DNA of 64,000 nucleotides. Source: Candidatus Aeolococcus gillhamiae (GTDB lineage Bacteria; Chloroflexota; Dormibacteria; Aeolococcales; Aeolococcaceae). Both the position numbers and the translations under genes were made by a program. Of this stretch, positions 36,375 through 60,247 are shown one piece after another. Where the stretch lies: contig QHBU01000153.1 of the NCBI GenBank assembly GCA_003244045.1, positions 67-64,066 on the forward strand, written 5' to 3'. The notes below the pieces were generated by a model. The model made no database searches, had not been told where the DNA came from, and saw only the letters and a program-made list of their open reading frames with translations. Every line of letters begins with the position of its first letter. The first letter of the stretch is position 1.

Positions 36375-37573
36375 CCGACCCGGGCTTGCCCGCGGTGGCG
36401 GGTGGCACCCCGCTGCGATCCCAACCCCTGCCGTACGGCCGGCATCAGCTCAGCGAGTCCGACGTCGCTGCGGTCGTCGAGTCGCTGCGCAGCGGCACGC
36501 TGACCGGGGGGCCCGGCGTCGCCGCGTTCGAGCGGGCTCTCGCCGACCGATGCGGTGCCGCGCACGCGGTCGCTGTCAGCAACGGCACTGCGGCGCTGGA
36601 CCTGGCCGTCGCCGCGCTGGGCATCGGTCCCGGCGACGAGGTGATCACGACGCCCCTGACGTTCGTCTCGACCGCCAACGCCGTAGTCCGCGCCGGCGCC
36701 ACGCCGGTGTTCGCCGACGTCGGCGCCGACAGGTGTCTGGACCCGCGCGCTACCGCCGCCGCGGTGACGGCGCGCACGCGGGCGGTCATCACCGTCGATT
36801 ACTCCGGGCTGCCCGCCGACGTCGATGCCCTGCGAGCAGCCCTGCCCCGGCCTCTCCCGGTCATTGCCGACGCGGCCCACTCACTGGGGGCGTCACTTGG
36901 CGGCCGCGCCGTGGGCTCGCTGGCCGACGTGACCACGTTCAGCTTCCATCCCGTCAAGCAGATCACCACCGGTGAGGGCGGGGCGGTGCTCACCTCCGAT
37001 GGCGCCGCCGCCGACCGCGTCCGCCACCTGCGCAACCACGGGATGACCAGCACCGCAGAGGAGCGCAGCGGGGCGCAGTGGCGCTACGACGTGACCACTC
37101 TCGGCAGCAACCATCGGTTGACGGCATTCCAGGCGGCGCTGGGGACCGCGCAGCTGGGCCGGCTCGAGGACATCGTCGCTCAGCGCTCCGAGCTCGCCGC
37201 TCGGTATGACGCACTGCTCGGCCGCATCCCTGGGATCGGCCTACCGCCTCGGCCGGACGGGCGGCGCAGCGCCTGGCACCTCTACGCGATCGAGATCGAT
37301 GCCGGTGTGTTCGGATGCAACCGCGACGCCGTCATCGACGCGTTGCGCGCCGAGGGAATTGAGGCCACCCTGCATTACCCGGCGGTCCATCTGCTTGCCC
37401 TGTACCGCTCCCGCGGCGGCCGATCCGGCACCGCGCCCCGCGCCGAGGCCCTCTGCGGCTCGCTGGTGACGCTGCCCCTGTTCCCCTCGATGACCCCAGC
37501 CGACCAGGAGGACGTCGTCACGGCGTTGACGAGGATCCAGGCGTGGGCGGGAGCACACCCGGTGGGGCGGTGA
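36371..37573 (+). CDS. pseC: DegT/DnrJ/EryC1-family aminotransferase, PseC-type
   Basis: LPYGRHQLSESDVAAVVESLRSGTLTGGP, SNGTAALDLA and FSFHPVKQITTGEGG (Lys). ATGA overlap with pseB. Confidence 0.85.
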   Translation: MTDPGLPAVAGGTPLRSQPLPYGRHQLSESDVAAVVESLRSGTLTGGPGVAAFERALADRCGAAHAVAVSNGTAALDLAVAALGIGPGDEVITTPLTFVSTANAVVRAGATPVFADVGADRCLDPRATAAAVTARTRAVITVDYSGLPADVDALRAALPRPLPVIADAAHSLGASLGGRAVGSLADVTTFSFHPVKQITTGEGGAVLTSDGAAADRVRHLRNHGMTSTAEERSGAQWRYDVTTLGSNHRLTAFQAALGTAQLGRLEDIVAQRSELAARYDALLGRIPGIGLPPRPDGRRSAWHLYAIEIDAGVFGCNRDAVIDALRAEGIEATLHYPAVHLLALYRSRGGRSGTAPRAEALCGSLVTLPLFPSMTPADQEDVVTALTRIQAWAGAHPVGR

Positions 37574-38550
37574 CCACCAGCGCGCTGCTCGTGCCGGACT
37601 GCGGGAGCGGCGTTGGCCTCGGTCACCTCGAGCGGATGCTCGCGCTCGCCGACGCGCTCCGCCCCGACGTCACCGCGATGCTCGTGGTGCCCGCCGGCGA
37701 TGACACCGTGCGGCGGCGCGTCACCGACCGTGGCCACGCGACGCTCGAGCAGGCCGGTGCCGCCGCCACGCGCGCGCTGTCGGCCGCGGCCGGCAGCGGC
37801 ACCGATGTTGTCGTGCTCGACGGCTACGTTTTCGACGTCGCCATCCAGCAGCGGCTGCGCGAGATCGCCCCACTGATCGTCGTCGACGATCTCGGGCTGC
37901 CGAGCGCCTGCGACCTGGCCGTGAACCCCGCCCCAGGCGGCGAGGCCAAGCATCCCGACGGCGCCGATTCCTTCCTGGGCGGCGCCCCCTTCGCGTTGAT
38001 CTCCGCCGCCATCGTGGAAGCACGCGACTCGGTGCCGCAACAAGGCCGGGGACGGCGCAGCGTGGTCGTCTCGACGGGTGCGGCCGACGCCAGCGGTCTC
38101 TGTGCGCTGGTGGTCGCAGGCGTGCTCTCCGGTGACGCCGGCGCCGAGGTGGTGGCCGTCGTCGGCCCGGACATGCGTCGCGATGACCTTGGCGATGATC
38201 CGCGCCTGACCGCCCTTGTCGGGCCGTCGACACTGGCGGGGGCACTCGCCAGTGCGACGCTGTTCGCGGGGGCCGCGGGCACCAGCGCGGTCCAGGCAGC
38301 GTGTGTCGGCATCCCCGCGGTGATCACGGCCACGGTGGCCAACCAGATGGACCAGGCCGCTGCCCTGGCCGACGCCGGCTGTGCCGTGCTCGCGCCGCCC
38401 CACAGAATCACCGCCGAGTGCCTCCGGCTTCTCGATGACGCGACGACCTGTGCGGAAATGTCCACCCGCGGTCGCCTCCTTGTCGACGGGCACGGGGCCG
38501 TCCGCGTCGCCGGCGCGGTGCGCCGCCTCATCCGCGCTCGGGCGGCCTGA
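37570..38550 (+). CDS. pseG: PseG/SpsG-type UDP-sugar hydrolase (GT-B fold)
   Basis: VPDCGSGVGLGHLERMLALADALR at the N-terminus, AGTSAVQAACVGIPAV toward the C-terminus. GTGA overlap with pseC. Confidence 0.65.
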   Translation: MTTSALLVPDCGSGVGLGHLERMLALADALRPDVTAMLVVPAGDDTVRRRVTDRGHATLEQAGAAATRALSAAAGSGTDVVVLDGYVFDVAIQQRLREIAPLIVVDDLGLPSACDLAVNPAPGGEAKHPDGADSFLGGAPFALISAAIVEARDSVPQQGRGRRSVVVSTGAADASGLCALVVAGVLSGDAGAEVVAVVGPDMRRDDLGDDPRLTALVGPSTLAGALASATLFAGAAGTSAVQAACVGIPAVITATVANQMDQAAALADAGCAVLAPPHRITAECLRLLDDATTCAEMSTRGRLLVDGHGAVRVAGAVRRLIRARAA

Positions 38551-39503
38551 TGCGGGCGCTCGTCCTGGGGTGCGGGTCGGTCGGGAGCCGGCACGCTCGC
38601 AACCTCACAGATCTCGGCCTCGAGGTCGCCGTTGCCGACGTCGACGAGGGTGTGGCAACCACTCTCGCCGCCGCGATCGGAGCGACACCGGTGACACGCG
38701 AGAGCGCGCCGCCGGGCGAGCTGGTGGTGGTGGCCACGCCGACCGCGGCGCATGCCGGCGACCTTGGCTGGGCGCTCGACCGGGGCGCTGACGTCTTCGT
38801 CGAGAAGCCATTGGCGTCCTCGCGGGGGGAGCTGGCCACGGCGCGAGCGCTGGCCCTCGCCCACAGGGACCGCATCGTCATGGTGGGCTGCAACCTGCGC
38901 TTCTCTGAGGGGTTCGAGACGGTGTCCTCCAACCTCGTGAGCGTCGGGCGTCCGGCCGCGCTGCTCGTCGACTTCGGCTGGTGGCTGCCGGCCTGGCGGC
39001 CGGCAGCTGACTACCGCACCCAGTACAGCGCGCGCCGCGCTCTCGGGGGAGGGATCGTCCTCGACGCCATCCATGAGCTCGACTACACGATCGCGCTCGC
39101 CGGTCCCGTCGAGCACGTCCATGGCGAGTGCGACTCGACGGGGATCCTCGACATCGACGTCGAGGACGTCGCCGACATCACCCTGCGCCATCGCGGTGGC
39201 GTGCAATCGCACGTTCACGTCGACTACCTGCGCCGCACGTACTCGCGGAGCTGCACGGTGATCGGCAGCGATGCGCAGATCACCTGGGACGTTCCGCGCG
39301 CGGTGGTCGAGCTCTCGCGCGACGCCGGGTCCGAAGCACAGATCCTGGCAGCCGGGATTGACGCCGATCCCAATGCGCAGTACGTCGCGGAGATGCGCCA
39401 CATGCTCGCCGCCATGGAGTCGCGAACGCCGACGTGCAACGATATCGAGCGCGCGGCCGCCACCACGGAGATCGCGCTGACCGCGCGCGACGGCGCTGCA
39501 TGA
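38550..39503 (+). CDS. Gfo/Idh/MocA-like NAD(P)-dependent oxidoreductase
   Basis: MRALVLGCGSVGSRHARNL Rossmann start, VFVEKPLA, VGCNLRF. Confidence 0.7.
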   Translation: MRALVLGCGSVGSRHARNLTDLGLEVAVADVDEGVATTLAAAIGATPVTRESAPPGELVVVATPTAAHAGDLGWALDRGADVFVEKPLASSRGELATARALALAHRDRIVMVGCNLRFSEGFETVSSNLVSVGRPAALLVDFGWWLPAWRPAADYRTQYSARRALGGGIVLDAIHELDYTIALAGPVEHVHGECDSTGILDIDVEDVADITLRHRGGVQSHVHVDYLRRTYSRSCTVIGSDAQITWDVPRAVVELSRDAGSEAQILAAGIDADPNAQYVAEMRHMLAAMESRTPTCNDIERAAATTEIALTARDGAA

Positions 39504-40267
39504 CGACTGTCGCGGTCATTCAGGCACGCACCGGGTCCACCAGGTTTCCCGGCAAGGTTCTCGCCGACCTCTGCGGCCGGCCGATGCTCGCTCACGTCAT
39601 CGAGCGGGTGTCGCTGGCACGCACCGTCGACCGCGTTGTGGTGGCAACCACCGAGGAGGCAGAAGACGACGCCGTCGCCGCCCTCGCCGGACAATGCAGA
39701 GTTGCGGTGACCCGCGGGCCGGTTGACGACGTCCTCAGCCGGTTCGTTCTTGCGGCCACGCAGCAGGCTGCCGACGTGGTGGTGCGCATCACCGCGGACT
39801 GCCCGCTGGTCGACCCGGCGGTCGTCGACCAGGTGGTGGAGGCGCGCGCTCTGCAGGGCGCCGACTACGCCAGCAATGTCGAGCCGGCGACGTACCCGGA
39901 CGGCTACGACGTCGAGGTGTTCACCGTCGCCTGCCTCGAACGCCTCGACCACGAAGCCGTCCTGCCGCACGAGCGAGAGCACGTCACCGCGCGCGTCCGG
40001 GAGCACCCGGATGAGTTCCGTGCTGTCCGCGTGGCCTGGGACCGCGACCTCTCGTCGATCCGTCTGACGGTCGACGTGCCGGAGGACCTTGAACGCGTCG
40101 CCGCGGTCCTGGCAGCGCTCCCGAAGGCGCCTCCACCCAACGTCGCGGCCGTGGTCGCGTACCTTGCCGGCAGGCCCGACCTCGGGCGCGGGCAGGGTCT
40201 GCCCGAGCGAGATGAGCGCTATCGTGCCCAGCGAGACGCGGCGCGGCCACAGGAGAGCTCGGGATGA
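39500..40267 (+). CDS. SpsF/FlmC-type cytidylyltransferase (candidate CMP-nonulosonate synthetase)
   Basis: VAVIQARTGSTRFPGKVLADLCGRPML, VVATT, RITADCPLVDP. This is the cytidylyltransferase family, but not the canonical NeuA/PseF GGSKG..KN motif. Confidence 0.75.
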   Translation: MTTVAVIQARTGSTRFPGKVLADLCGRPMLAHVIERVSLARTVDRVVVATTEEAEDDAVAALAGQCRVAVTRGPVDDVLSRFVLAATQQAADVVVRITADCPLVDPAVVDQVVEARALQGADYASNVEPATYPDGYDVEVFTVACLERLDHEAVLPHEREHVTARVREHPDEFRAVRVAWDRDLSSIRLTVDVPEDLERVAAVLAALPKAPPPNVAAVVAYLAGRPDLGRGQGLPERDERYRAQRDAARPQESSG

Positions 40268-41553
40268 CGGCATCGACGGCGGCCACCGACGGCGAGCTGC
40301 TCCAGCGTGCCCGGCGTGTCCTGCCGGGGATCACCCAGACCTACAGCAAGGCCCCCGACCAGCAGGTGGAGGGCGTCTACCCGGTCTTTCTCGAGCGCGG
40401 TGAGGGGTGCCGGGTGTGGGACCTGGCCGGCAACGCCTACATCGACTACCCCTGCGCGCTGGGGCCGATGGTGCTCGGCTACGCTGACGCCGAGGTCGAC
40501 GCGGCGGCGCGCGACCGTGTGAATGGCGGCCCATGCTTCTCGCTCGGGCACCGGCTCGAGGTCGAGGTGGCCGAGCTGCTCGTGGAGATGGTCCCGGGTG
40601 CCGAGATGGTGCGTTTCCTCAAGACGGGCTCGGAGGCCACCACCGCCACCGTGCGCCTGGCTCGTGCCGCCACCGGCCGTGACCACGTGGCCATGTGTGG
40701 CTACCACGGCTGGCACGACTGGGCGATCGGTCACACCACGCGCAGCGCCGGCGTGCCGCCCGCGGTGCGCGAACTGACGCATCAGTGGACCTACAACGAC
40801 CTCGAGTCGCTGCGCGCCGTGCTCGAGAAGCATCGAGGCGGCGTGGCGGCGGTGATCATGGAACCGGTCGGTGTCGAGCCGCCGGCGCCGGGCTTCCTCG
40901 AGGGCGTCCGTGCGCTGGCCGACGAGCACGGCGCGCTGCTCATCTTCGACGAGGTGATCACCGGGTTCCGGCTCGCCCCGGGAGGAGCGCAGGAATACTT
41001 CGGCGTCCTGCCCGACCTGGCCGCGTTCGGCAAAGCGATGGCCAACGGCTACCCGCTGGCAGCGGTCACGGGTCGCGCCACGGTGATGGAGCAGATCGCC
41101 TCCACGGTGTTCATCTCGAGCACGTTCGGCGGCGACACCGTCTCGCTCGCCGCGTCCCTCGCGACCATGCGGCGCATCCGCGCCGGCGGCGTCATCGAGC
41201 ACCTCTGGCGGCAGGGCGCGCGGATCATGGAGGGGTTCAACGCGCTCGCCTCCGAGCACGAGGTACCGGCGCGGATGATCGGGCTGGCACCACGCCGCGT
41301 CATCGCGTTCGAGCCGGCGGGAGGCGCGGACGGCAATGGCGTGAAAGGGCTGCTCTGGCAGGAGTGCCTCGACCGCGGTGTGCTCATGGGCAACGCCAAC
41401 TTCGTCTCCCTCGCCCACGATGATGCAGCCGTCGACGCGACACTCGATGCCTTCGACGGCGCGCTGGCGGTGGTGGGACAGGCGGTCCGCCAGGGTGACG
41501 TCACCAGCCGGCTGCGCGGGCATGAACCAGCCGAGGTGTTCCGCCGCGCATGA
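40264..41553 (+). CDS. class-III (HemL-like) PLP aminotransferase
   Basis: ERGEGCRVWDLAGNAYIDY, GSEATTATVRLARA, LIFDEVITGFR, FGKAMANGYP (Lys). Confidence 0.8.
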   Translation: MTASTAATDGELLQRARRVLPGITQTYSKAPDQQVEGVYPVFLERGEGCRVWDLAGNAYIDYPCALGPMVLGYADAEVDAAARDRVNGGPCFSLGHRLEVEVAELLVEMVPGAEMVRFLKTGSEATTATVRLARAATGRDHVAMCGYHGWHDWAIGHTTRSAGVPPAVRELTHQWTYNDLESLRAVLEKHRGGVAAVIMEPVGVEPPAPGFLEGVRALADEHGALLIFDEVITGFRLAPGGAQEYFGVLPDLAAFGKAMANGYPLAAVTGRATVMEQIASTVFISSTFGGDTVSLAASLATMRRIRAGGVIEHLWRQGARIMEGFNALASEHEVPARMIGLAPRRVIAFEPAGGADGNGVKGLLWQECLDRGVLMGNANFVSLAHDDAAVDATLDAFDGALAVVGQAVRQGDVTSRLRGHEPAEVFRRA

Positions 41554-44475: not shown

Positions 44476-45330
44476 TCAGCCATGGTGCAGGCTGAATGGA
44501 CCCTCACCGTACCGCACCATGACGTATGGCTTCCCGTTTTCCGTGAGCAGGCCATCGACCTCCAGCCGAATTTTCTGAACGGCGCCCCCCGCAGCAACAA
44601 GGTCCCCCGCGGCGACGGAGACGCGAATCGCACCGTGGGCGGGTACGGATGCGGTGCGCTCGACCACCGTCCTGCTGTCCGGATGCGTGACCCAGCGAAT
44701 GGTGGTTCGACCCGCCGCAGGGCTGTGGTTCACGAGGTATGCGTCGACGCGCCGCAGGTCCTGCGCGTCGATCAACCGTTTGCTCGTCCACGGACCGCCG
44801 CGGTGCCAGCGGCTTCGAAAGGTCAGGCTGCCAAGGCGGCCGACGCCGAACGCCTCTCCGTAGTACTGGTCGATCGAGTGCACGTACGCCACGCTGCCAC
44901 CGGCGTCGTAGTACCCCATCCAGAAAGGCGACTGGGTCATGGCCCCATCCGGCCCGGACTCGACGAGCCGCTTCGCGTACGCCTCGCCCGGGTCCACGTC
45001 GACGGCGACGGTACCCAATGTGGCGGTGCTTCCCAGCTCGGCGAGTACGCCCGCGACCGGGAGTGTCAGCGAGGTGAACGGAGCCAGCTGGCGACTGACG
45101 TCCCCGAGGACTCTTCCTCCGGCATCGAACACGCGAACGTGCGCATCGACGGGCTCGGTGACGTCGGGCAGGAACATCGAATAGAAGTGGTGCAGGTGCA
45201 GCCGGCTGTGGACACCATCCTCCTCGATGAAGCAGTGCGCGTAGGCGCGGCGAGGCAGCCGGCCGCCGGGATTGGACAGCCGCCGCGCCACGACAATGCC
45301 GCGCCGGGCGAGCGATCGCGACGTGCTCAC
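44476..45330 (-). CDS. hypothetical protein (paralog B of tandem pair)
   Basis: 284 aa, coding-like and beta-rich. Shares the ..HV.VFDAGGRVLGDV.. block with the upstream gene. Ends ...GEGPFSLHHG. Confidence 0.65.
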   Translation of the reverse strand: MSTSRSLARRGIVVARRLSNPGGRLPRRAYAHCFIEEDGVHSRLHLHHFYSMFLPDVTEPVDAHVRVFDAGGRVLGDVSRQLAPFTSLTLPVAGVLAELGSTATLGTVAVDVDPGEAYAKRLVESGPDGAMTQSPFWMGYYDAGGSVAYVHSIDQYYGEAFGVGRLGSLTFRSRWHRGGPWTSKRLIDAQDLRRVDAYLVNHSPAAGRTTIRWVTHPDSRTVVERTASVPAHGAIRVSVAAGDLVAAGGAVQKIRLEVDGLLTENGKPYVMVRYGEGPFSLHHG

Positions 45331-46253
45331 GGCGCACGACCTTCAGCATGGTCGAAAAGCAGCTCGCGCACCCGCCGGTTGGCCGCCTTGCGCACGTCAC
45401 CGCCCCACCAGGGGATGTAGTACATGGGCGGCAGCGTGTGATCACAGGCCAGCCCGCCGGAGCGGTCGTTGCGTGTGATGGAGAGTGGCACCACGCTGCC
45501 CTTGTCGGAGAAGCCGACGACCATCCCGTTGCCGCCCAGCTCCACGAAGCGCTCAAAGACGCCCGCTGCACGGAGGACCCCGCGCGAGCTCACTCGTGTG
45601 AAGCCGTACGCCGGTATCCGGACGGTGTGGTTGGCAAGCCGCTCACCGTTGGCCGCGATGAATGCGAGGTCGAAGGAGATGTCCAGCTGATAGTCCGCAG
45701 ACGTCGAGATGTTGAGGAGCACCAGGTTCGTGTCCGTCTCATCATCGACGAGCAGTTTCGGTGACTGCATCAGTGTGCTCCGGGTGCCGCCGAAGCGCGG
45801 GTCGTTCATCGGAATCGACTGGTACGCAAGCCCCGCCGCGACCGACCACTCCTTCGAGTGGTATTCGATGTATTCATCCGACACTGCGACCTGGTCGAAG
45901 ATCGCGCTCAGCTCGATGTCCACGGCGTCGATGCCGACGTACCGGCCTGGGGTGAGGTGGAAGATGCCAAGCACATCCTCGCCGTCGGTGTCGATGGTGC
46001 GGCCGGGACCGACGTGGTCGTCCACCTCGACGACGGTGAACCCGCCGGGCTTGATCACCTCGAATCGGTCGACGGCGCCGAGCCGCCGCCCGCCGGCGCT
46101 GAACGCCTCGAACGACACGTGGAGATCGTCGACGAGCGGGCTCGACTCCGTAGTGCCGTTTGCAAGAGAGACCCGGGTGCGATACCCCAGTTCGCCGAGG
46201 GTGGCGAAGTAGCACATCTTGATGTACCGGGGATCGAAGCCCTTGATGAGCAC
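45327..46253 (-). CDS. hypothetical protein (paralog A of tandem pair)
   Basis: 308 aa. LHVSFEAFSAGGRRLGAVDRFEVIKPGGFTVVEV and a second similar module ISFDLAFIAANGERLANHTVRIPAYGFTRV. 4-nt overlap with the downstream paralog. Confidence 0.65.
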   Translation of the reverse strand: MLIKGFDPRYIKMCYFATLGELGYRTRVSLANGTTESSPLVDDLHVSFEAFSAGGRRLGAVDRFEVIKPGGFTVVEVDDHVGPGRTIDTDGEDVLGIFHLTPGRYVGIDAVDIELSAIFDQVAVSDEYIEYHSKEWSVAAGLAYQSIPMNDPRFGGTRSTLMQSPKLLVDDETDTNLVLLNISTSADYQLDISFDLAFIAANGERLANHTVRIPAYGFTRVSSRGVLRAAGVFERFVELGGNGMVVGFSDKGSVVPLSITRNDRSGGLACDHTLPPMYYIPWWGGDVRKAANRRVRELLFDHAEGRAP

Positions 46254-46295
46254 GAAGTCCCTCCGTGAGCGGCCCGCCGGCAGTTGGGTCGCAGT

Positions 46296-47267
46296 CTAAC
46301 CGCGGCGGTCGGCGTGGTCGGTACGGGTGCCCGGCCGGCCGCGCAAACGGAGGGCACGAAGGATCCGACCGCCCATGGTTCGGGCGTTTCGCCAGGCGCC
46401 GACCGACGCCGGTCGACCGCGAAAGGTGCGTTCGCGCTGGTAGCGGGTGACATCGATGGGCCGGCCGTCGAGGAGGCAGTCGACGGCGTCGAGCAGCAGC
46501 GGGCGCGTGGCATGCTCGCTTGTGTGGCCGCCCGAGCGCCGGGCGTCGAGTGCCACCGAGCCGCCTGCCGCAGCCCAGGCCAAGGACAGGGGTTCGACCT
46601 GCTCGCCGAAGACGCCCTCGTCGTCGCGGCACGCCTGGACGAACAGACGCGGTGGCGGCTGGGGCTCCCCCCACTCGTCGATGATCCGGCGGACCTGCCG
46701 CGTGTAGCGGTGGTTCTGGCTCGACACCGGGTCGCCGTCCGGGCAGATGAAAGCAACGTGTCGCCAGCGTCCTTGTCGTTGGGCGCACACATCGAGGTCG
46801 ACGTGTGGGCTGATCGCGACGATACCCCTGACCCCGAACTGCAGCCCGAACTTGAGTGCGGCAGTCGCTCCCATTGACGACCCCATCGTCACCGTCTCGG
46901 ACGCCGAACGAGCGGAGGACTCCATCACGGTCGTGATCACCTCGGTCACCGCGCGCTCCACGAAGAAGTCACCAGCCTCGCCGGTGTAGTACGTGCCATT
47001 GCCGTCAGCCCCGTACTCGTCGCAGACGAAGAGCCAGTCGAAGTCGACAACGTCGCCGAGCATCCGCAACCTGTGGAAGTGGCCCTGGAACGCCGCTCGA
47101 TACTGGCGGGCATCACCCCATTCGCCGAAGAAAGCGCTGAAGTGAATGACCAGGCCACGCGCTCCCGGATGGGTGACGTGCACGTAGTGCAGGACGTGCC
47201 CGGCTGCATCGCGATACTCGCGGACCTGGTCCGACCACTGCTGTCGCGTTGTGGACGTCACGGCCAC
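46296..47267 (-). CDS. alpha/beta-hydrolase-like protein
   Basis: VIHFSAFFGEWGD, then a nucleophile elbow in TMGSSMGATAALKFG (G-x-S-x-G). Confidence 0.6.
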   Translation of the reverse strand: MAVTSTTRQQWSDQVREYRDAAGHVLHYVHVTHPGARGLVIHFSAFFGEWGDARQYRAAFQGHFHRLRMLGDVVDFDWLFVCDEYGADGNGTYYTGEAGDFFVERAVTEVITTVMESSARSASETVTMGSSMGATAALKFGLQFGVRGIVAISPHVDLDVCAQRQGRWRHVAFICPDGDPVSSQNHRYTRQVRRIIDEWGEPQPPPRLFVQACRDDEGVFGEQVEPLSLAWAAAGGSVALDARRSGGHTSEHATRPLLLDAVDCLLDGRPIDVTRYQRERTFRGRPASVGAWRNARTMGGRILRALRLRGRPGTRTDHADRRG

Positions 47268-47746
47268 TCGAATACCAGGAACCCGGCATCCGCAGAGGCC
47301 ATCCGTCGAAACCCCGCGCGCGTGAATGCGCGAAGTGACACGCTGTTGTCCGGATGAACGAGCGCCCTGAGCCTGGTCACCGCACCGGTGGACAGCACGC
47401 CTGCCTGCATCGCTTGCAGGATCGCCGACCCGACGCCTCGTCCGCGCTGCCCGGCGGCGACGGCGATGGACACCGTGCCCGTGTCGTCGTCGACATCGAG
47501 GCGGACCTGGCCGACCGCGACACCGTCCTCCTCAGCGATCCAGAGGCGAGTGGCGGGGTCCCGCAGCCGTCGGGCAAGCCATGCTTCGTGCTCGTCGAGC
47601 GTCACCGCCCTGCCGCTGACGCTGAAGCGCACCGCGTCGTGGTCATTGCGCCATTGGAAGAGCAGCGCGACATCGTCAGGGCGGACCGGACGCAGCGTCA
47701 CCCGCGGGTGTTGCGCCCCGGCGTTCACCGCTCCAGATCGTCCCAC
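47258..47746 (-). CDS. pseH: GNAT N-acetyltransferase, PseH-type
   Basis: LRPVRPDDVALLFQWRNDHDAVRFS....LDEHEAWL and IAVAAGQRGRGVGSAILQA (acetyl-CoA site). Confidence 0.7.
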   Translation of the reverse strand: MGRSGAVNAGAQHPRVTLRPVRPDDVALLFQWRNDHDAVRFSVSGRAVTLDEHEAWLARRLRDPATRLWIAEEDGVAVGQVRLDVDDDTGTVSIAVAAGQRGRGVGSAILQAMQAGVLSTGAVTRLRALVHPDNSVSLRAFTRAGFRRMASADAGFLVFEWP

Positions 47747-48804
47747 TGGAGGACCTGATCGCGCACCACGTCGTGTGCCACGTGCCGTCCCACGACCTGG
47801 TCGAGCGCGTCGACCGGGATTCCGAAGCCGGGCCGCTTCACGGCGATGTCGGCAGGAGTGATCACACCGCCGGCAAGCAGGTCACGCGCGGCGACCAGGC
47901 TGCGCCGACCCAGTCGGAACATCTCGGCTTCGGCCTCGGTGACACGTTTCACGCTCGAACCGAGCGATGCCTCCGTCTCTCTGATGGCGACGACCATCGC
48001 GGCAAGCTCGTCAGGCTCGAGAGCGAAGGGATGGTCGGGCCCCTCTTGGTCGCGGCTCAGCGTGTAGTGCTTCTCGATGGCGCAGGCACCCAGCGCCACC
48101 GCGACCACGTCGGCGGTGTTGCCCATGGTGTGGTCGGACCAGCCGACCGGGATGTCGAACGCGCTACGCAACGTCTTGATCGCCAGCAGGTTGAGGTCCT
48201 CGAACCGCGGCGGATAGTTGACGGCGCAGTGCATGAGCAGGAGATCGCGCGCGCCCGCGGCCGCGGCGGTGTCGAGAGCGCGCTCGATGTCGCCGAGCGA
48301 GGCCATCCCCGTGGAGATGAGCAACGGCTTCCCGGTACGCGCTGCGTACTGGATGAGCGGCAGGTGATTCACCTCGTACGACGCGATCTTGTACGCCGGC
48401 ACCCCCAGGTCCTCGAGCAGGTCGATGGCCGCCTCCTCGAAGGGTGTCGACAGGAAGGTGATGCCTGCGCTGGCCGCGTGGCGCGCCAGATCCGCGTGCC
48501 ATTCCCAGGGGATCTCGACGCGTTTGATCAGCTCCCAAACGGATTCGCGCTCTCCCACTAGGCCCTTGTCCTTCAGGTAGCTCATCTCCGGCGTCTGCCG
48601 CGAGTACAGGCCTTCGGCGGTGTACGTCTGGAACTTGACGGCGTCCGCCCCCGCTTCTGCGGCGACGTCGATGAGACGCAACGCGGTGTCGAGGTCGCGG
48701 TTGTGGTTCGACCCGGCCTCGGCGATGACGTAGCAGGGATGCCCGGGCCCAACCGCACGATCGCCGATGCGGAACTCAGGGCTGCCGTAGACGCGCGCGC
48801 TCAC
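47725..48804 (-). CDS. pseI: NeuB-family nonulosonic acid synthase, PseI-type
   Basis: FRIGDRAVGPGHPCYVIAEAGSNHNRDLDTALRLIDVAAEAGADAVKFQTY with a C-terminal SAF-like domain. Track ORF (to 49014) trimmed to the in-frame GTG at 48804. ATG 48927 is an alternative start. Confidence 0.85.
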   Translation of the reverse strand: MSARVYGSPEFRIGDRAVGPGHPCYVIAEAGSNHNRDLDTALRLIDVAAEAGADAVKFQTYTAEGLYSRQTPEMSYLKDKGLVGERESVWELIKRVEIPWEWHADLARHAASAGITFLSTPFEEAAIDLLEDLGVPAYKIASYEVNHLPLIQYAARTGKPLLISTGMASLGDIERALDTAAAAGARDLLLMHCAVNYPPRFEDLNLLAIKTLRSAFDIPVGWSDHTMGNTADVVAVALGACAIEKHYTLSRDQEGPDHPFALEPDELAAMVVAIRETEASLGSSVKRVTEAEAEMFRLGRRSLVAARDLLAGGVITPADIAVKRPGFGIPVDALDQVVGRHVAHDVVRDQVLQWDDLER

Positions 48805-48950: not shown

Positions 48951-50018
48951 TTACGTCGCGTATCGCTCGATCCTTGACCCCATGGCACGTCGATATGCCT
49001 CTTTCGAGAACCACTTCTCACGCACCATCAGTGGCACGGTTCCCCCACCGAACCCGCGCTTGAAGCGTGCGATGCCCAACTGCTTGTCCGACGGCACGTC
49101 GTGCGGAAGCGGCCCGAACTGCTGGAGGCCCAGCTCGTAGCGACGAAAGCCACGCGCCTTCAGCCAGTCGATCGCGGCGGCGTGGAGGACGTGGCCGATC
49201 GGTTCTGCGGCGTGGTCGGGGTGGTTGGCGGCGGACGCGTAGTACGCCGCGCCCGCGTGGAGGATAAGGTAGGTGAATCCCACCGCGGCGTCGCCTCTCA
49301 CCGCCTTCACGAGCGCAGCAGCTCCGGTGGTGAGCCATGACTCCATCAGTCGGAACGTCTCGTCCGGCCGGGTCACCCGGCCGGCAGCGAGCGCGTGCAT
49401 CGCCCGATACGCCGGGAAATCGGCGATGGCCTGCTCGCCCGTGGTCACGCTCGTGTCGAGCACCCGCCGACCGCGGGTGACGTCGGCGCGATGACCCTTG
49501 GTCATCGACGTTCGGAGGGTCTGCGCGTCCACGTCGAGGTCGATCACCTGCGACGAGAGGCTGACATCCGTGTAGCCGGCCCGGGTCGTGGCTGCAATGA
49601 ACACGGGCAGGTGATCCCGCCAGCCCGCCGCCAGCGGGCTGAGCTTCAGTGCGACGGAATCGACCCCGTGCTGTTCGGCCAGCTCGTCGACGTGATGCAG
49701 GGCGGCGCGGAGCGCGGCGTCACCCTGTGACGGATCGAGTGTGGCGGCGACAGCAGGTGACCAGCACGCGTCGCCGCCAAACGAGAAGCGCTGACCGTCG
49801 TAGTGCTCCGCGGCCTTCTCGACCATCAGCGGTACGAGCGCGAGCGGTTGCGTGCCCTCGACCACCGCGAAGGCCAAGCTGCGACTCGCCAACGCCGGTC
49901 GGTACGCGAGTGTGTAGTCTCGCCAAGCGGTGGTGTGCCAGAACCAGGCGCCGCTCGCGTCCTGGCACAGACGGTCCCACTCCCGGTCTCCGAGCTCCGC
50001 GGCCGCGACGACGTCCAC
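48951..50018 (-). CDS. FemAB-like (GNAT-fold, aminoacyl-transferase-type) protein
   Basis: WDRLCQDASGAWFWHTTAWRDY at the N-terminus, and AAYYASAANHPD...IGHVLHAAAIDWLKARGFRRYELG in the second GNAT lobe. This is the FemAB / lipid II:glycine glycyltransferase-like layout. Confidence 0.7.
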   Translation of the reverse strand: MDVVAAAELGDREWDRLCQDASGAWFWHTTAWRDYTLAYRPALASRSLAFAVVEGTQPLALVPLMVEKAAEHYDGQRFSFGGDACWSPAVAATLDPSQGDAALRAALHHVDELAEQHGVDSVALKLSPLAAGWRDHLPVFIAATTRAGYTDVSLSSQVIDLDVDAQTLRTSMTKGHRADVTRGRRVLDTSVTTGEQAIADFPAYRAMHALAAGRVTRPDETFRLMESWLTTGAAALVKAVRGDAAVGFTYLILHAGAAYYASAANHPDHAAEPIGHVLHAAAIDWLKARGFRRYELGLQQFGPLPHDVPSDKQLGIARFKRGFGGGTVPLMVREKWFSKEAYRRAMGSRIERYAT

Positions 50019-51758
50019 TCAGTGGGTCTCCGCCGTCGCGGGTGTGATCACCGGGCCGTCGCCCGTCAGCACGCCGTCCACCACGCGGTCGAGTCCGGCG
50101 TGGCGACCGGGCGCGAGGTCGTCGGCCGACATCACTGTCACACGTGGCCGGCTGCGGCCCTCCTCGTGCACGACCTCGAGGAACTGGTGGTAGCGGAAGA
50201 AGAAGAGATACGCGTATCGGCGTGCCAGCTCGGCGATTCGCGCACGCTCTTCGGCCTCCGGCGGTGCAGCGACAGCGGTCTCCAGCGCGCGCCAGTAGTC
50301 GTCGGCAGCGTCGGGATCCAGGGTGAACCCACGCTTCCCGTAATGGGTCTTGGCAGCGCAGATGACGGGAATCCCCTGCGCGGCCATCTCCAGGCCGATG
50401 GTCGACGTGTATACCAGCCCGACCGACGTCATGCCGATCAGCGCGTACGAGCTGACGTCGCTCTCCGCGTGCACCACCCGCACATTGTCGGGAAGGCGTG
50501 CGAACTGGGTGGCGATGTGGTCGGCCATGCGCTCACGTGACACGTGGTTGGCAAGCTTCACCTCGGCGGGATGTACCCGGAGCACCACGTCCACCGATGG
50601 GTTCCGCTGCGCCCAGCGCACGACCTCGACCAGCCATCTGCCCATGGATGGGAACGCGACGTCCTTGTCCTGGATGGCGCTGTCCCAGAGGATGTTGAGG
50701 AAGACCCCCACCACGGGGTGACCGTCGCGCAGGCGCAAACCGGCCCGGATGTCGGCCGCGTCCTCGACCCGCGTCGCCCAGAAGTTGTCGAGGGTTCTTC
50801 CGCCACGGACGCGTTCGTCGAGGTAGGTTTCGATGGTGCGCAGCTGGTCGGCCGTCAGCGCTGTGCCGGCAGCCGCATGCCATGTCGCCTCGCCGGGGTC
50901 GAGGTCGTCTGCACCAGCACGCCAGCGGCCGGCGAGCACCGTGTCGGTGAGGAAGCCCTTTTCGTACCGCGTGACCGGGATCTCACGTCGCGACGCCAGC
51001 TCCGCCAGGATCCGCTCCGGGAAGAACGCGCCGTTGAGGACCAGGATCCGGTCCGGCCGCACCTGGTCGAGCAGCTGCGTGAACGCCTCGCGCAGAACCA
51101 TTCCGCTGACCAGGAATGAGCGGTAGGTCCGCAGGGTCTCCGCGTCGTCGAGCAGAGTGCCGCGCGAGAGGAACCACGCCACCGACGTCCTGACGAACCG
51201 GCCGAGCGCGAAGCTGTCCACCGAGTAGGCGTCGCAGTCGGCCACGGACCGCAGTGCGGCGGTGCGCGCCCGTGCCGTCGCGGTCAGCGCGCCGATGTCC
51301 ACCAGGTCCTTCACGCGGATGGGGTCGAACCCCGCGGCAGCGATGGCGTCGTGCGCGTAGCCTGCGCAGGAGTGGCATGGCATGGGCGGAGCCGCATGCA
51401 CGGGTGCGACGTCGCAGACAGGCAGGCGGCCTCCACACATGGCGAAGACCGGTTCCCAGCCGCGACAGCGCGCGGCGTGGGCGATCGTGGCCTCGGTCAC
51501 CGTGTGCGTGGACCAGCCCCGTGTCGACAGGATCAACAGGCGCCCCACCGCCGCACGGGGCAGCTCGCAGGCTGTGTCGCGCAGCCGTCGCAGGTCGTCC
51601 ATCTCCACCGGTTCGAACGGCGCGGGGAGATGAACGGCGTGCGCGGCGTCGCGGGAGATTCCCCAGCCTTCGCGCAGGAGGATTCGTGCCCGGGGGTGGG
51701 CGTACGACCATTCGCGCAGGCGATCGACCGCACGTCTCTGCAGCGTTGGGCGCGTCAC
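50019..51758 (-). CDS. capsule-polysaccharide-biosynthesis (KpsC/KpsS, Capsule_synth-like) transferase
   Basis: VGVFLNILWDSAI, VVLRVHPAEVK (HP motif) and VGLVYTSTIGLEMAAQGIPVICAAKTHYGKRGFT resemble the KpsS/KpsC family core. Confidence 0.65.
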   Translation of the reverse strand: MTRPTLQRRAVDRLREWSYAHPRARILLREGWGISRDAAHAVHLPAPFEPVEMDDLRRLRDTACELPRAAVGRLLILSTRGWSTHTVTEATIAHAARCRGWEPVFAMCGGRLPVCDVAPVHAAPPMPCHSCAGYAHDAIAAAGFDPIRVKDLVDIGALTATARARTAALRSVADCDAYSVDSFALGRFVRTSVAWFLSRGTLLDDAETLRTYRSFLVSGMVLREAFTQLLDQVRPDRILVLNGAFFPERILAELASRREIPVTRYEKGFLTDTVLAGRWRAGADDLDPGEATWHAAAGTALTADQLRTIETYLDERVRGGRTLDNFWATRVEDAADIRAGLRLRDGHPVVGVFLNILWDSAIQDKDVAFPSMGRWLVEVVRWAQRNPSVDVVLRVHPAEVKLANHVSRERMADHIATQFARLPDNVRVVHAESDVSSYALIGMTSVGLVYTSTIGLEMAAQGIPVICAAKTHYGKRGFTLDPDAADDYWRALETAVAAPPEAEERARIAELARRYAYLFFFRYHQFLEVVHEEGRSRPRVTVMSADDLAPGRHAGLDRVVDGVLTGDGPVITPATAETH

Positions 51759-52507
51759 CCGCGCTTCTCGACGAGCAGGTCAGCGCGGCTGCGCTGCAGC
51801 GGTACGCCCAGCCGCGGCGCGACCCACCGCCAGCGCACTCCGGGCACCTGGCGCAGCCAGCTCTCGATCAGCCGGCGCGACAAGGGCAGGCAGTACCCAG
51901 CCGGCATGCTGCTCGGGTCCGGACGCAGCGGTTGCCGGCGGAAACGGCGGCCGACGCGCCGCGACCCCGTCCACGCTCGTCCGAGAGCACGCTGCAGCCG
52001 CGAGTGGGGGAGGTCCTCGGCGGGCAGGGGCAGGTTGCCGAAGAGCGCACGACCTCCCGGGGCGAGCAGCCCGAGCGCGCCGCGCACGAAGCGCTCGCCC
52101 TCCGCCTCGTCAGTCACGTAGTGCAGCGTGGCGTACACGAGCACGCGGTCGAACGAGCCGAGGTCGCGCAGGTCGTCCCTGGTCACGTCCGCGCAGCGGA
52201 CCACGGCGTTGGGAAGCCTCTCGCGCAGCACCTCGACGGCCTGCGGCGAGATGTCGACACCGGCGTACCGTGCCGCGCGCCGCGCGATGGGCATGCCGAG
52301 CACGCCCGTTCCGGAGCCGAGCTCGACGACGCTGACGCCGTCCGGCTTCAGTTTGGCGATGACGTCACCCACCATCCGCTTCATCTCGAGAGCGGATGTC
52401 GTCGCCGGCCTGGTGCTGGCGACCACCGGGTCCTCGCTCCGGGCGACCAAATCGTGGAGGTCGCGGACGGGGTTCTCGGACACGGCGGGATCGTAGCCCG
52501 CCGCCAC
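51755..52507 (-). CDS. class I SAM-dependent methyltransferase
   Basis: VVELGSGTGVLGMPIARRA..YAGVDISPQAV (motif I / post-I) and LAPGGRALF. Confidence 0.8.
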   Translation of the reverse strand: MAAGYDPAVSENPVRDLHDLVARSEDPVVASTRPATTSALEMKRMVGDVIAKLKPDGVSVVELGSGTGVLGMPIARRAARYAGVDISPQAVEVLRERLPNAVVRCADVTRDDLRDLGSFDRVLVYATLHYVTDEAEGERFVRGALGLLAPGGRALFGNLPLPAEDLPHSRLQRALGRAWTGSRRVGRRFRRQPLRPDPSSMPAGYCLPLSRRLIESWLRQVPGVRWRWVAPRLGVPLQRSRADLLVEKRG

Positions 52508-52510: not shown

Positions 52511-53581
52511 TCAGACCGCCGAGGACGTGTTCGCCCGGTGATCACGGGGGAGCTGCGGCGGCGCTCCACCACCGGTCCGCACCCCACGGGCGGCCTCAGC
52601 CGCGCCCGCCCAGAAGCCGACTCCCCAGGACAGGTGCATGACCGCGAACACGGGGGGCACGCGCACCCGCACCGCTGCCGGTTCAGCGCGGGCCGCCCGC
52701 AGGCCAGCCGCCACGCATGATGCCGCGTAGACCGCGGCGCCGGCGACCACTCGCGGGCGCCCGCGACGCGTGGCGGCCATGAGCGCTGCCGCCGGGAGAG
52801 CGGCCACCAGCGCGGGCGCCGCGAGGTGGTAGGGCCGGATCACCCCCAGGGTTGAGCGGGCCACCCGCACCTTGGCGCGGCCGTACCGGAAGTACTGGCG
52901 CGCCAGGGCGGTCACCGAGTCGCGGACGTGGTAGCGGGTGGGGATGTCTGGGCTGAACAGCACACGGCCGCCGCTGGCTCGGATGCGGTGGTTGAGCTCG
53001 TAGTCCTCGTGGGGCGGATAGGCTTCGTCGAAAAGGCCGACCCGCTCCAGGGCGCTGCGCCGGAAGGTTCCCGGGAAGACGGTGGGGACGTCCTCGGTGC
53101 GCTGCGAGTAGCGAAAGCGCGCGCCGCCGACGCCGAATGGCGACCGCATCGCGCAGGCGATGGCCCGCCCCATGACGTCCCGGCCGGCGCCGTCGGCGCG
53201 ACCGCCCACGTTGTCAGCGCCGCTCTCGAGGAGCAGCTCGACAGAGCGGCGGAGGTGGTGCCGCGTCCACTCCGCGTGACCGTCCTGGCGCGCGATGAAG
53301 TCGCCACAGCTGGCGAGAATCGCGCAGTTCAGGCCGGCGGCCTGGGTGCGGCCGGGGTTGTCGATCAGACGCAGGTTGGGGTGCTGCCTGGCCAACTCCT
53401 CGACCAGGTCGCGCGTGCTGTCGGACGAACCGCCGTCGGCGACGATCACCTCGTACCGGTCGGGAGGAAAGTCCTGGTCGAGCACTGAGGTTAGACAGGC
53501 CTCGATGTACCGCTCCTCGTTGTACACCGGGACCACGACGCTGACGAACGGATACGGCTGCTTCGGACCGTGCGGTTCCAT
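52511..53581 (-). CDS. family-2 glycosyltransferase with C-terminal TM segments
   Basis: VSVVVPVYNEERYIEACLTSVLDQDFP, VADGGSSDST and a DxD region. Confidence 0.85.
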   Translation of the reverse strand: MEPHGPKQPYPFVSVVVPVYNEERYIEACLTSVLDQDFPPDRYEVIVADGGSSDSTRDLVEELARQHPNLRLIDNPGRTQAAGLNCAILASCGDFIARQDGHAEWTRHHLRRSVELLLESGADNVGGRADGAGRDVMGRAIACAMRSPFGVGGARFRYSQRTEDVPTVFPGTFRRSALERVGLFDEAYPPHEDYELNHRIRASGGRVLFSPDIPTRYHVRDSVTALARQYFRYGRAKVRVARSTLGVIRPYHLAAPALVAALPAAALMAATRRGRPRVVAGAAVYAASCVAAGLRAARAEPAAVRVRVPPVFAVMHLSWGVGFWAGAAEAARGVRTGGGAPPQLPRDHRANTSSAV

Positions 53582-60194: not shown

Positions 60195-60247
60195 CCCGGC
60201 GGGAGCGGCGCAGCGCGCGTGCGTCGGGGGACCGCAGAATCCCGTGT

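What the first reader, a model, noticed from the sequence alone, without database searches (positions are those of the whole stretch)
48951..50018. FemAB-like aminoacyl-transferase-type gene immediately upstream of pseI
FemAB-family enzymes use aminoacyl-tRNA to add amino acids to amino groups of peptidoglycan precursors. Here one is embedded between a KpsC/S-like transferase and pseI/pseH in the same operon, with adjacent stop/start at 50018/50019. Nonulosonic acids N-acylated with amino-acid-derived groups have been reported in some O-antigens (from memory). The responsible enzymes are, to my knowledge, not well defined. This gene is a candidate for tRNA-dependent aminoacylation of the 5/7-amino (or an extra) group.
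Basis: inference. Interest (0 to 1): 0.6.

Follow-up and report, generated by a model that had tools for sequence, protein, structure and literature searches.

The report
Fem-like aminoacyl transferase in pseudaminic-acid cluster
The gene is real and encodes an uncharacterised relative of the FemX enzymes, which copy amino acids from charged tRNA; it most likely hangs an amino acid, probably then methylated, on a sialic-acid-like surface sugar, a step no searched paper demonstrates.

Summary
The ORF at 48951-50018 (minus strand, 355 aa) is a real gene. Its GTG start abuts the stop codon of the KpsC/S-like gene, and the pseI-like gene lies about 146 nt downstream.

It matches Pfam PF13480, not PF02388 FemAB. 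The AlphaFold model (pLDDT 96) is a double-GNAT fold. Its nearest solved structures are all aminoacyl-tRNA-dependent: FemX, FemA and Sbb17/Sba18 (Z 24-29), then MprF (Z 18-19). Acyl-CoA tandem GNATs score Z 17 or less.

The FK(R)GFGG motif with the catalytic-type lysine is invariant in 54 relatives. No conserved CoA-binding loop was found. Four relatives carry a C-terminal GatB/YqeY tail, a domain I know only from tRNA-handling proteins.

- A NeuB/PseI gene lies within 10 kb in 41 of 47 well-flanked relatives' loci, in bacteria, CPR and archaea.
- The gene was absent from all 21 clustered pseudaminic-type loci found through the class-III aminotransferase, so it is an accessory tailoring gene.
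- The operon's methyltransferase (51755-52507) recurs next to Fem genes.

Best reading (about 0.6): tRNA-dependent aminoacylation of a pseudaminic-acid intermediate, followed by methylation. The acceptor atom and the amino acid are unresolved.

This scan noted the same kind of gene before on other DNA. One supporting comparison rests on an unpublished genome (G014).

The parts
48951..50018 (-). Fem-like double-GNAT transferase (P0001, 355 aa), the finding itself
   Evidence: PF13480 at 38.9 bits. AF2 pLDDT 96.4. Nearest structures FemX, FemA and Sbb17 at Z 24-29. Invariant F319-K320-R321-x-F323-G324-G325, R217, H176, W25-F26-x-H28.
51755..52507 (-). SAM-dependent methyltransferase (P0004); recurrent partner of Fem genes
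   Evidence: Methyltransf_11 at 54.5 bits, NodS at 27.2 bits. Matches at E 1e-8 to 1e-16 lie next to Fem in L016, L030, L039, L043, L053, L058 and L063. Fem-less loci give only weak core matches. A Fem-linked MTase community occurs in 6/43 Fem loci against 0/21.
50019..51758 (-). KpsC/KpsS-like (Capsule_synth) transferase, translationally coupled to Fem
   Evidence: PF05159 at 24.4 bits. Its stop abuts the Fem start. The Kps-Fem order is conserved in L006/G011 and L007.
52511..53581 (-). GT2 glycosyltransferase, first gene of the same tightly packed run
   Evidence: PF00535 at 102.8 bits. A 3-nt gap separates it from the MTase.
47725..48804 (-). NeuB/PseI-type nonulosonate synthase (likely start GTG 48804)
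   Evidence: PF03102 at 306.8 bits. TIGR03586 PseI at 338.8 bits (cut-off 340.25) and TIGR03569 at 370.2 (cut-off 399.65).
47258..47746 (-). PseH-like GNAT N-acetyltransferase with canonical CoA loop RGRGVG
   Evidence: PF13302 at 69.6 bits. TIGR03585 at 47.7 bits, below its cut-off of 93.1. Motif A is present.
44476..47267 (-). Three conserved genes of unknown function downstream of pseH (u323, u308, u284)
   Evidence: No clear family. Syntenic at 64-82% identity in congener G014 (unpublished genome).
35364..36374 (+). PseB, inverting UDP-GlcNAc 4,6-dehydratase
   Evidence: TIGR03589 at 467.8 bits, above its cut-off of 407.75.
36440..37573 (+). PseC-like DegT aminotransferase
   Evidence: TIGR03588 at 366.8 bits (cut-off 423.5). 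PF01041 at 372 bits.
37543..38550 (+). PseG-like UDP-sugar hydrolase
   Evidence: TIGR03590 at 86.4 bits (cut-off 153.55).
38550..39503 (+). GFO/IDH/MocA oxidoreductase
   Evidence: PF22725 and PF01408. Found within 10 kb of Fem in 34/47 loci.
39434..40267 (+). CTP_transf_3 cytidylyltransferase (PseF candidate)
   Evidence: PF02348 at 112.4 bits. Only 35.7 bits to TIGR03584 PseF.
40264..41553 (+). HemL-like class-III aminotransferase
   Evidence: PF00202 at 180.8 bits. NF004856 at 391 bits (cut-off 486). Common in nonulosonate loci without Fem.

Best explanation
P0001 is a FemX-type double-GNAT aminoacyl transferase. It most likely takes an amino acid from an ordinary charged tRNA and transfers it to a pseudaminic-acid pathway intermediate. 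That intermediate is probably nucleotide-linked: either the UDP-4-amino sugar made by PseC (which becomes N7) or CMP-Pse. The product would be an amino-acid-decorated nonulosonic acid, which the KpsC/S-like and GT2 transferases of the same operon then build into a surface glycan. The operon's methyltransferase P0004 probably methylates the added residue, most simply at its free alpha-amino group. Shown here: the fold, the conserved catalytic-type motif, the lack of a conserved CoA loop, fusion of relatives to a tRNA-binding domain, and the genomic linkage to Pse genes and to this methyltransferase type. Inferred: tRNA as donor, the sugar as acceptor, and methylation of the residue. Not resolved: which amino acid and which acceptor atom. 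My rough split is N7 via the PseC product 35%, an extra amine made by the GFO oxidoreductase plus aminotransferase 25%, and other sites 40% (N5 after deacetylation, a hydroxyl, or the assembled glycan).
For: (1) Structure. The AF2 model has pLDDT 96.4. Foldseek's top 11 hits are FemX of W. viridescens and S. aureus, Sbb17/Sba18 and FemA. VIA Z-scores are 28.8 (6snr), 26.0 (1lrz), 25.3 (1ne9) and 25.0 (9wqw; rmsd 2.9 A over 278 residues). MprF follows at 18-19 and acyl-CoA tandem GNATs at 17.4 or less. (2) Sequence. A family profile against all PDB sequences hits only FemX and Sbb17/Sba18 at E about 1.5e-4. In that alignment FemX R211 pairs with the invariant R217 and FemX Y254 with Y260. The motif GIxRFKxGFGG is shared with Sbb17/Sba18, and F319 and K320 are invariant in 54/54 relatives. 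An F-K pair holds the catalytic lysine in DhpH-C (F328-K329), which corresponds to FemX K305 (PMC12945691). (3) The CoA loop [RQ]xxGx[GA] is present in the neighbouring PseH (RGRGVG) but is not conserved in the Fem family at the beta4-alpha3 position. (4) Four family members carry a C-terminal GatB_Yqey domain: P0096 at 89.5 bits (full length), and P0085, P0106 and P0112 with partial tails. P0106 sits directly after NeuB in a full Pse operon. (5) Context. Of 47 genome loci with at least 8 kb on each side, 41 have NeuB/PseI, 40 a DegT aminotransferase, 36 a cytidylyltransferase and 34 PseB within 10 kb. They span many bacterial phyla, CPR and archaea. (6) One relative is a single chain of B12-radical-SAM, PseH-like GNAT and Fem domains inside a Pse operon. 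(7) The P0004-type methyltransferase lies next to Fem genes in at least 8 unrelated loci and is not found as a full-length match in Fem-less loci. (8) Precedents. Orf11 (BD-12 pathway), a FemABX-like enzyme, aminoacylates an amino sugar from Gly-tRNA (PMC12945691), and the PDB entries for Sbb17/Sba18 are titled aminoacyl-tRNA-dependent peptide synthases complexed with streptothrisamine. Alanyl-bearing legionaminic acids exist in E. coli O161, with a proposed 'Lea3 alanyltransferase', and in Vibrio vulnificus (PMC7685785; PMC7371886).
Against: There is no biochemical or glycan-structure evidence for this organism or for any member of this family. P0001 does not reach Pfam FemAB (PF02388) or the TIGR04421 cut-off. 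P0001 itself has no GatB/YqeY tail, and fused forms are rare: 4 distinct proteins, found among the 90 homologues and the 150 listed representatives. No dedicated tRNA gene was found next to Fem; aminoacyl-tRNA synthetase paralogues were not looked for. A PseH-like acetyltransferase is present, so the N7 amine may already be taken. The oxidoreductase and class-III aminotransferase that could supply an extra amine occur in nonulosonate loci without Fem: 0 of the 21 clustered loci had Fem, and among 23 well-flanked loci only one weak HMM hit appeared. They are therefore not Fem-specific partners. Fold similarity does not prove the donor.
Confidence: 0.6

Rival explanations
1. It is a tandem-GNAT N-acyltransferase that uses an acyl-CoA or acyl-carrier-protein donor, as MshD and other double GNATs do. 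It would add a non-amino-acid acyl group (for example hydroxybutyryl or glyceroyl) to the sugar.
For: Pfam names the family an acetyltransferase (GNAT) domain. Acyl-CoA tandem GNATs are still clear structural matches at Z 14-17. One related locus (L087) encodes an AMP-binding ligase and a phosphopantetheinyl transferase nearby. Many known N-acyl groups on nonulosonic acids are not amino acids (own knowledge).
Against: All the closest structures and the only PDB profile hits are aminoacyl-tRNA users, with a gap of about 7 Z-units to the CoA enzymes. No conserved CoA pyrophosphate loop was found. The FK catalytic motif of tRNA-dependent Fem enzymes is invariant. GatB/YqeY fusions make little sense for a CoA enzyme.
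Confidence: 0.2
2. It is tRNA-dependent, but the acceptor is not the nonulosonic acid. It could be another sugar, the lipid-linked repeat unit or the finished polymer made by this locus (for example a residue added by the adjacent KpsC/S-like or GT2 enzyme).
For: In this window and its closest relatives the gene is translationally coupled to the KpsC/S-like transferase, not to pseC. MprF and VlmA show that Fem-fold enzymes can acylate hydroxyls of non-sugar acceptors (for VlmA; own knowledge for MprF). In Clostridium difficile a FemAB-like gene sits in a cluster for a peptidylamido hexose, not a nonulosonic acid (PMC5207246).
Against: Across phyla the constant neighbours are NeuB, PseB, PseC and the cytidylyltransferase, whereas Kps-like genes are near Fem in only 2 of 47 loci. 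Fem often directly follows the pseC-like gene or neuB. FemX R211, which I recall contacts the UDP phosphates of its substrate, aligns with the invariant R217, which fits a nucleotide-linked acceptor (the role of R211 is own knowledge).
Confidence: 0.12
3. It is an ordinary peptidoglycan cross-bridge enzyme (FemX/MurM type) that happens to lie in a glycan locus.
For: The nearest characterised structures are peptidoglycan Fem enzymes.
Against: Family members occur in archaea (Hadesarchaea, Woesearchaeota, Methanomicrobiaceae, the isolate Natrarchaeobius versutus) and in CPR bacteria, again beside nonulosonate genes. The gene is present in only some congeners, together with the glycan cluster. 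It has no PF02388 match.
Confidence: 0.03

Closest known systems
Sbb17 / Sba18 (PDB 9wqw, 9wqx, 9wqy), with Orf11 of the BD-12 streptothricin-type pathway as the published biochemical precedent
   Same: Single-chain double-GNAT fold without the coiled-coil insert (Z 24.3-25.0, rmsd 2.8-2.9 A, 17-18% identity). Shared HPDH and GIxRFKxGFGG motifs. The acceptor is an amino group on a sugar (PMC12945691).
   Different: Those enzymes work in antibiotic biosynthesis on streptothrisamine. This one sits in a cell-surface glycan cluster, and the presumed acceptor is a pseudaminic-acid intermediate. Its N-terminal motif AWFWHT and other invariant residues are family-specific.
FemX of Weissella viridescens (PDB 1ne9, 4ii9) and FemX/FemA of S. 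aureus (6snr, 1lrz)
   Same: Fold (Z 25-29). A nucleotide-sugar-type acceptor in FemX(Wv). R211 and Y254 equivalents are conserved, as are the basic helix and the F-K catalytic motif.
   Different: 11-13% identity. No PF02388 match. No coiled-coil arm as in FemA and S. aureus FemX. The context is not peptidoglycan, and the family includes archaea.
E. coli O161 O-antigen lea cluster (CMP-Leg5Ac7Ala, proposed 'Lea3 alanyltransferase') and Vibrio vulnificus Leg5Ac7AcAla
   Same: Nonulosonic acids that carry an amino acid on N7, with a gene proposed for the alanyl transfer (PMC7685785; PMC7371886).
   Different: These are legionaminic-type, not pseudaminic-type. I could not obtain Lea3 to test whether it belongs to this family (one search found nothing). 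To my knowledge none of these enzymes has been assayed.
TIGR04421 FemAB_IMCC1989 with PF27889 PLP_IMCC1989 (database-defined, uncharacterised pair)
   Same: Best NCBIfam hit, over the C-terminal half. In some relatives' loci Fem is flanked by a PLP_IMCC1989-type gene and the same type of methyltransferase.
   Different: The score of 64.9 bits is far below the cut-off of 250. The window has no PLP_IMCC1989-type gene.

Membership tests
FemABX-type GNAT-fold aminoacyl-tRNA-dependent transferases (functional class) | Two tandem GNAT domains forming one acceptor cleft | tested here: met
   AF2 pLDDT 96.4. Whole-length alignment to FemX, FemA and Sbb17 at Z 24-29 and TM 0.63-0.70.
FemABX-type GNAT-fold aminoacyl-tRNA-dependent transferases (functional class) | Catalytic lysine preceded by an aromatic residue near the C-terminus (FemX K305, DhpH-C F328-K329) | tested here: met
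   F319-K320 are invariant in 54/54 relatives. They align with RFK of Sbb17/Sba18. The equivalence to FemX K305 rests on PMC12945691, not on a residue-level structural alignment made here.
FemABX-type GNAT-fold aminoacyl-tRNA-dependent transferases (functional class) | Aminoacyl-tRNA as acyl donor | not testable with these tools
   Indirect evidence only: GatB_Yqey fusions in four relatives, no conserved CoA loop, and a basic helix K174/R177 aligned with the FemX KSKIKR helix.
Pfam PF02388 FemAB | Score above the gathering threshold | tested here: not met
   P0001 gives no PF02388 hit at E<=0.1. A 30%-identical relative, P0094, reaches 29.4 bits against a cut-off of 24.
Pfam PF13480 Acetyltransf_6 | Score above the gathering threshold | tested here: met
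   38.9 bits against a cut-off of 22, residues 176-298.
NCBIfam TIGR04421 FemAB_IMCC1989 | Score above the curated cut-off | tested here: not met
   64.9 bits against a cut-off of 250; only the C-terminal half aligns.
Acyl-CoA-dependent GNAT acetyltransferases | Conserved motif A, [RQ]xxGx[GA], at the beta4-alpha3 loop | tested here: not met
   No conserved occurrence at residues 266-275 in 54 relatives. The positive control PseH has RGRGVG. A pattern test is soft evidence.
Pseudaminic acid pathway (context of the gene) | PseB-type inverting 4,6-dehydratase plus PseC, G, H, I and F equivalents | tested here: inconclusive
   PseB passes its equivalog cut-off (467.8 against 407.75). PseI is borderline (338.8 against 340.25). 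The PseC, PseG, PseH and PseF homologues are all below their cut-offs. The sugar is pseudaminic-type, but its exact structure is unknown.

The most novel reading that the evidence does not exclude
Charged tRNA is a routine building-block donor for cell-surface sialic-acid-like sugars in many bacterial phyla, CPR and archaea. This Fem family, together with its partner methyltransferase, would write amino-acid (N-methyl-aminoacyl) decorations onto pseudaminic or legionaminic acids. That would be a direct, previously undemonstrated link between the translation apparatus and glycan diversity.
Probability: 0.5. Interest if true: 0.7.

Novelty: new variant of a known kind. Interest (0 to 1): 0.55.

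Why it matters
Amino-acid-bearing nonulosonic acids are known antigens (E. coli O161, Vibrio vulnificus), but within the text searches I could run, no paper demonstrates the enzyme that attaches the amino acid. This family is a concrete, widely distributed candidate, with about 970 sequence clusters at E<1e-30. It could be tested with a simple in vitro assay. If confirmed, it would extend tRNA-dependent, non-ribosomal aminoacyl transfer from peptidoglycan, lipids and antibiotics to surface glycans, in archaea as well. It would also allow amino-acid decorations to be predicted from genomes. For this particular window the result is one more example of something the scan has met several times. 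The added value is the supporting evidence: the tRNA-domain fusions, the partner methyltransferase, and the finding that the oxidoreductase/aminotransferase pair is not Fem-specific.

Tried and rejected
(1) Dedicated tRNA genes. None lies next to Fem in the window or in 60 related loci. The exception is L020, where a tRNA-Val/Leu/Arg cluster follows a Fem homologue that has no nonulosonate genes nearby; I take this as coincidence.

(2) Longer fused forms. A search of proteins of 623-2000 aa found nothing. The GatB/YqeY fusions are 453-548 aa and came from the other searches.

(3) The idea that the GFO oxidoreductase and class-III aminotransferase are obligate partners that make the amine Fem acylates. 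In 80 metagenome loci anchored on the aminotransferase, 22 of the 23 well-flanked ones had NeuB. None had a clear Fem: one weak HMM hit at E 2.8e-4, and 0 of the 21 loci that were clustered. The pair is therefore a common part of this cluster type, independent of Fem. This lowers that acceptor model but does not exclude it.

(4) The idea that Fem replaces PseH. A PseH-like GNAT is present in the window and in 26/47 Fem loci. tBLASTn detects PseH at a similar rate in Fem loci and Fem-less loci, so I saw no depletion.

(5) PIG-L deacetylase as a supplier of a free amine. It is present in only 10/47 loci and is absent from the window.

(6) Testing whether E. coli O161 Lea3 is a family member. blastn of an 'Enterobacteriaceae'-labelled homologue against E. 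coli genomes found nothing.

(7) The roughly 40%-identical aminotransferase hits in relatives are isolated HemL-like genes with no nonulosonate neighbours.

(8) The hexapeptide-repeat acetyltransferase scan was too unspecific to use.

(9) Literature. No paper in the searchable library links FemAB with nonulosonic, pseudaminic or legionaminic acid biosynthesis, apart from a mention of a FemAB-like gene in the C. difficile type B flagellin locus.
Full report
**Observation**

The minus-strand ORF 48951-50018 encodes 355 aa. Its codon-position GC matches that of its neighbours. The upstream 579-aa ORF ends in TGA at 50021-50019, and the GTG of this gene follows immediately, with a GGAG 11-14 nt upstream. 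Downstream lies a NeuB/PseI-type synthase. Its listed ORF overlaps the Fem stop, but homologue lengths and the start of the domain favour GTG 48804, which leaves a gap of about 146 nt. The run GT2 - methyltransferase - KpsC/S-like - Fem - PseI - PseH-like - three unknown genes is tightly packed on the minus strand. The plus strand at 35364-44452 carries, in order:
- PseB
- a PseC-like aminotransferase
- a PseG-like hydrolase
- a GFO/IDH/MocA oxidoreductase
- a cytidylyltransferase
- a HemL-like class-III aminotransferase
- a flippase
- a Glyphos_transf-like gene

Only PseB passes its NCBIfam equivalog cut-off, and PseI is borderline. I therefore call the sugar 'pseudaminic-type' and nothing more precise.

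The window is contig C153 of a 2.96-Mb MAG that is 84% complete. One congener, G011, holds the contig of record DATBPD010000028.1, titled Candidatus Dormiibacterota.

**What the protein is**

Pfam places it in PF13480 (38.9 bits). There is no PF02388 FemAB hit. NCBIfam's best match is TIGR04421 FemAB_IMCC1989, at 64.9 bits against a cut-off of 250.

An alignment of 54 relatives shows these invariant residues: W25, F26, H28, H176, R217, W228, G297 and F319-K320-R321-x-F323-G324-G325.

The AlphaFold model is very confident (pLDDT 96.4).
- By Foldseek, the first eleven matches are FemX (two species), Sbb17/Sba18 and FemA.
- By VIA-align, these enzymes score Z 24-29, MprF scores 18-19, and acyl-CoA tandem GNATs (clavulanate tandem GNAT, MshD, N-myristoyltransferase, VipF) score 14-17.

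A family profile searched against all PDB sequences finds only FemX and Sbb17/Sba18. In that alignment FemX R211 pairs with the invariant R217, and FemX Y254 pairs with Y260. The C-terminal motif GIxRFKxGFGG is shared with Sbb17/Sba18. A recent review identifies the lysine of this F-K pair as the only reactive active-site residue of FemX (K305) and as essential in DhpH-C (K329, next to F328) (PMC12945691). The canonical CoA pyrophosphate loop is present in the neighbouring PseH-like protein (RGRGVG) but is not conserved in this family.

**Independent hint at tRNA use**

Four family members score E 1e-123 to 1e-134 against the family profile and are 37-38% identical to P0001. Each carries a C-terminal GatB_Yqey domain:
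- P0096 has the full domain, at 89.5 bits.
- P0085, P0106 and P0112 have its last helical part.

To my knowledge this domain occurs only in tRNA-handling proteins: GatB, GatE, YqeY and one GlnRS. P0106 lies immediately after neuB in a complete Pse operon, and P0112 follows a methyltransferase. The scan has also met such a fusion in an archaeal glycan operon (e1-4529534).

**Genomic linkage**

A pattern scan of one genome per species returned 161 relatives. The best 80 come from Dormiibacterota, Actinomycetota, Acidobacteriota, Chloroflexota, Desulfobacterota, Elusimicrobiota, many CPR lineages, Clostridia, Bacteroidota and archaea. Of the 47 loci with at least 8 kb on each side, the following had a given gene within 10 kb:

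| Gene within 10 kb of Fem | Loci (of 47) |
|---|---|
| NeuB/PseI | 41 |
| DegT aminotransferase | 40 |
| Cytidylyltransferase | 36 |
| GFO oxidoreductase | 34 |
| PseB | 34 |
| Class-III aminotransferase | 31 |
| Methyltransferase | 26 |
| PseH-like GNAT | 26 |

Fem often directly follows the pseC-like gene (gaps of 15-96 nt) or directly precedes a GFO gene. One relative is a single chain of B12-radical-SAM, PseH-like GNAT and Fem domains inside a Pse operon. The archaeal members rule out a peptidoglycan-specific role for the family.

**Reverse test**

To see which neighbours are specific to Fem, I anchored a metagenome scan on the class-III aminotransferase. Of 23 loci with at least 6 kb on each side, 22 had NeuB and 21 the cytidylyltransferase. 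None had a clear Fem gene: there was one weak hit at E 2.8e-4, while the HMM did detect the divergent G014 Fem-like control. In a clustering of all ORFs, the Fem community was present in 43/43 Fem loci and in 0/21 aminotransferase-anchored loci.

Fem is therefore an accessory tailoring gene added to a common cluster type, and the oxidoreductase/aminotransferase pair does not depend on it. This weakens my earlier idea that Fem acylates an extra amine made by that pair, though it does not exclude it.

The communities seen only with Fem were a PLP_IMCC1989-type enzyme (absent from this window), a second GFO-plus-DegT pair, and a methyltransferase type. The window's own methyltransferase P0004 belongs to that last type. 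Matches over most of its length, at E 1e-8 to 1e-16, lie directly beside Fem in L016, L030, L039, L043, L053, L058 and L063. Fem-less loci give only weak matches to the SAM-binding core. P0004 also scores above the Pfam NodS threshold (27.2 bits against 24). NodS N-methylates a free sugar amine (own knowledge). This is a hint, not a test.

**Close relatives**

Among 60 relatives, the cluster-type aminotransferase occurs only in G011, G014 and G015, so the locus is accessory within the genus.
- G011 has the same Kps-Fem-PseI arrangement, with Fem 67-68% identical.
- In G015 the second operon is not assembled.
- G014 keeps GT2, PseI, PseH and the three unknown genes. Its Kps-like gene is inverted and only 52% identical, and it has no orthologous Fem. 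Instead it has a divergent PF13480 protein (22% identity, hhalign probability 97%, motif RYKAQFGG) that overlaps the start of the P0004-type methyltransferase.

The G014 comparison supports a Fem-methyltransferase unit that is swapped along with the transferase. It rests on an unpublished genome that is only 54% complete.

**Mechanism proposed**

- Shown: the fold, the motifs and the genomic linkage.
- Inferred: P0001 binds the 3' end of a housekeeping aminoacyl-tRNA. K320 and F319 position the ester, and an amine of a nucleotide-linked Pse intermediate attacks it. P0004 then methylates the residue. The KpsC/S-like and GT2 enzymes incorporate the decorated sugar into the glycan.
- Open: the acceptor. 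N7 via the PseC product is favoured by gene order in many loci, by the O161 Leg5Ac7Ala precedent and by the PseH-Fem fusion, where PseH could then acetylate the new alpha-amine. An extra amine, N5 after deacetylation, or a hydroxyl all remain possible.

**Comparison and novelty**

[quoted passage not shown] The closest glycan precedents are E. coli O161 Leg5Ac7Ala, with its proposed but, to my knowledge, untested 'Lea3 alanyltransferase' (PMC7685785), and V. vulnificus Leg5Ac7AcAla (PMC7371886). I found no paper that assigns a Fem-type enzyme to a nonulosonic acid. A FemAB-like gene is mentioned in the C. difficile type B flagellin locus (PMC5207246).

The scan has already reported this kind of gene on other DNA (e1-1193123, e1-1174731, e1-4513413, e1-4482847, e1-954861, e1-1054688). 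This window is therefore a further instance. I rate it a new variant of a known kind, with interest 0.55.

Noticed in passing
L151, L163, L166, L169, L175, L188 (metagenome loci): The HemL-like class-III aminotransferase, NeuB and a cytidylyltransferase occur together without any PseB or PseC homologue in range. This suggests a separate, widespread ulosonic-acid pathway in which this aminotransferase has a core role.
   Followed up: no
L087:3032-6775 (protein P0109, 1247 aa): A single chain joins a B12-binding radical-SAM domain, a PseH-like GNAT and the Fem domain. Next to it lies a cytidylyltransferase-kinase(APH)-class-III aminotransferase triple fusion.
   Followed up: partly
L119:695-2703 (G014, unpublished genome): A congener carries a divergent Fem-like gene (22% identity) whose end overlaps the start of the same type of methyltransferase. 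It lacks the orthologous Fem between the Kps-like gene and pseI.
   Followed up: partly
L009, L016, L044, L045, L052, L053, L058, L120: A PLP_IMCC1989-type (divergent DegT-fold) gene sits beside Fem and its methyltransferase and was not seen in Fem-less loci. It could act on the free alpha-amine of the added residue, for example to invert it to the D-form. The window has no such gene.
   Followed up: partly
L020:10001-11396: A 43%-identical Fem homologue with no nonulosonate genes within 10 kb is followed after about 90 nt by tRNA-Val, tRNA-Leu and tRNA-Arg genes.
   Followed up: no
window 44476-47267 (minus strand): Three genes downstream of pseH have no clear family. u323 shows a faint esterase/XcbB-CpsF signal. 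All three are conserved in synteny in G014 at 64-82% identity.
   Followed up: no
window 6001-12000: G+C falls to 0.60-0.62 against 0.66-0.73 elsewhere in the window. This may be a foreign or otherwise distinct segment.
   Followed up: no
window 58005-60194: A large DUF6541 membrane-type protein (89.6 bits) lies just after the Bac_transf initiating transferase, followed by another methyltransferase at 60095-61171. Both probably belong to the same glycan locus.
   Followed up: no
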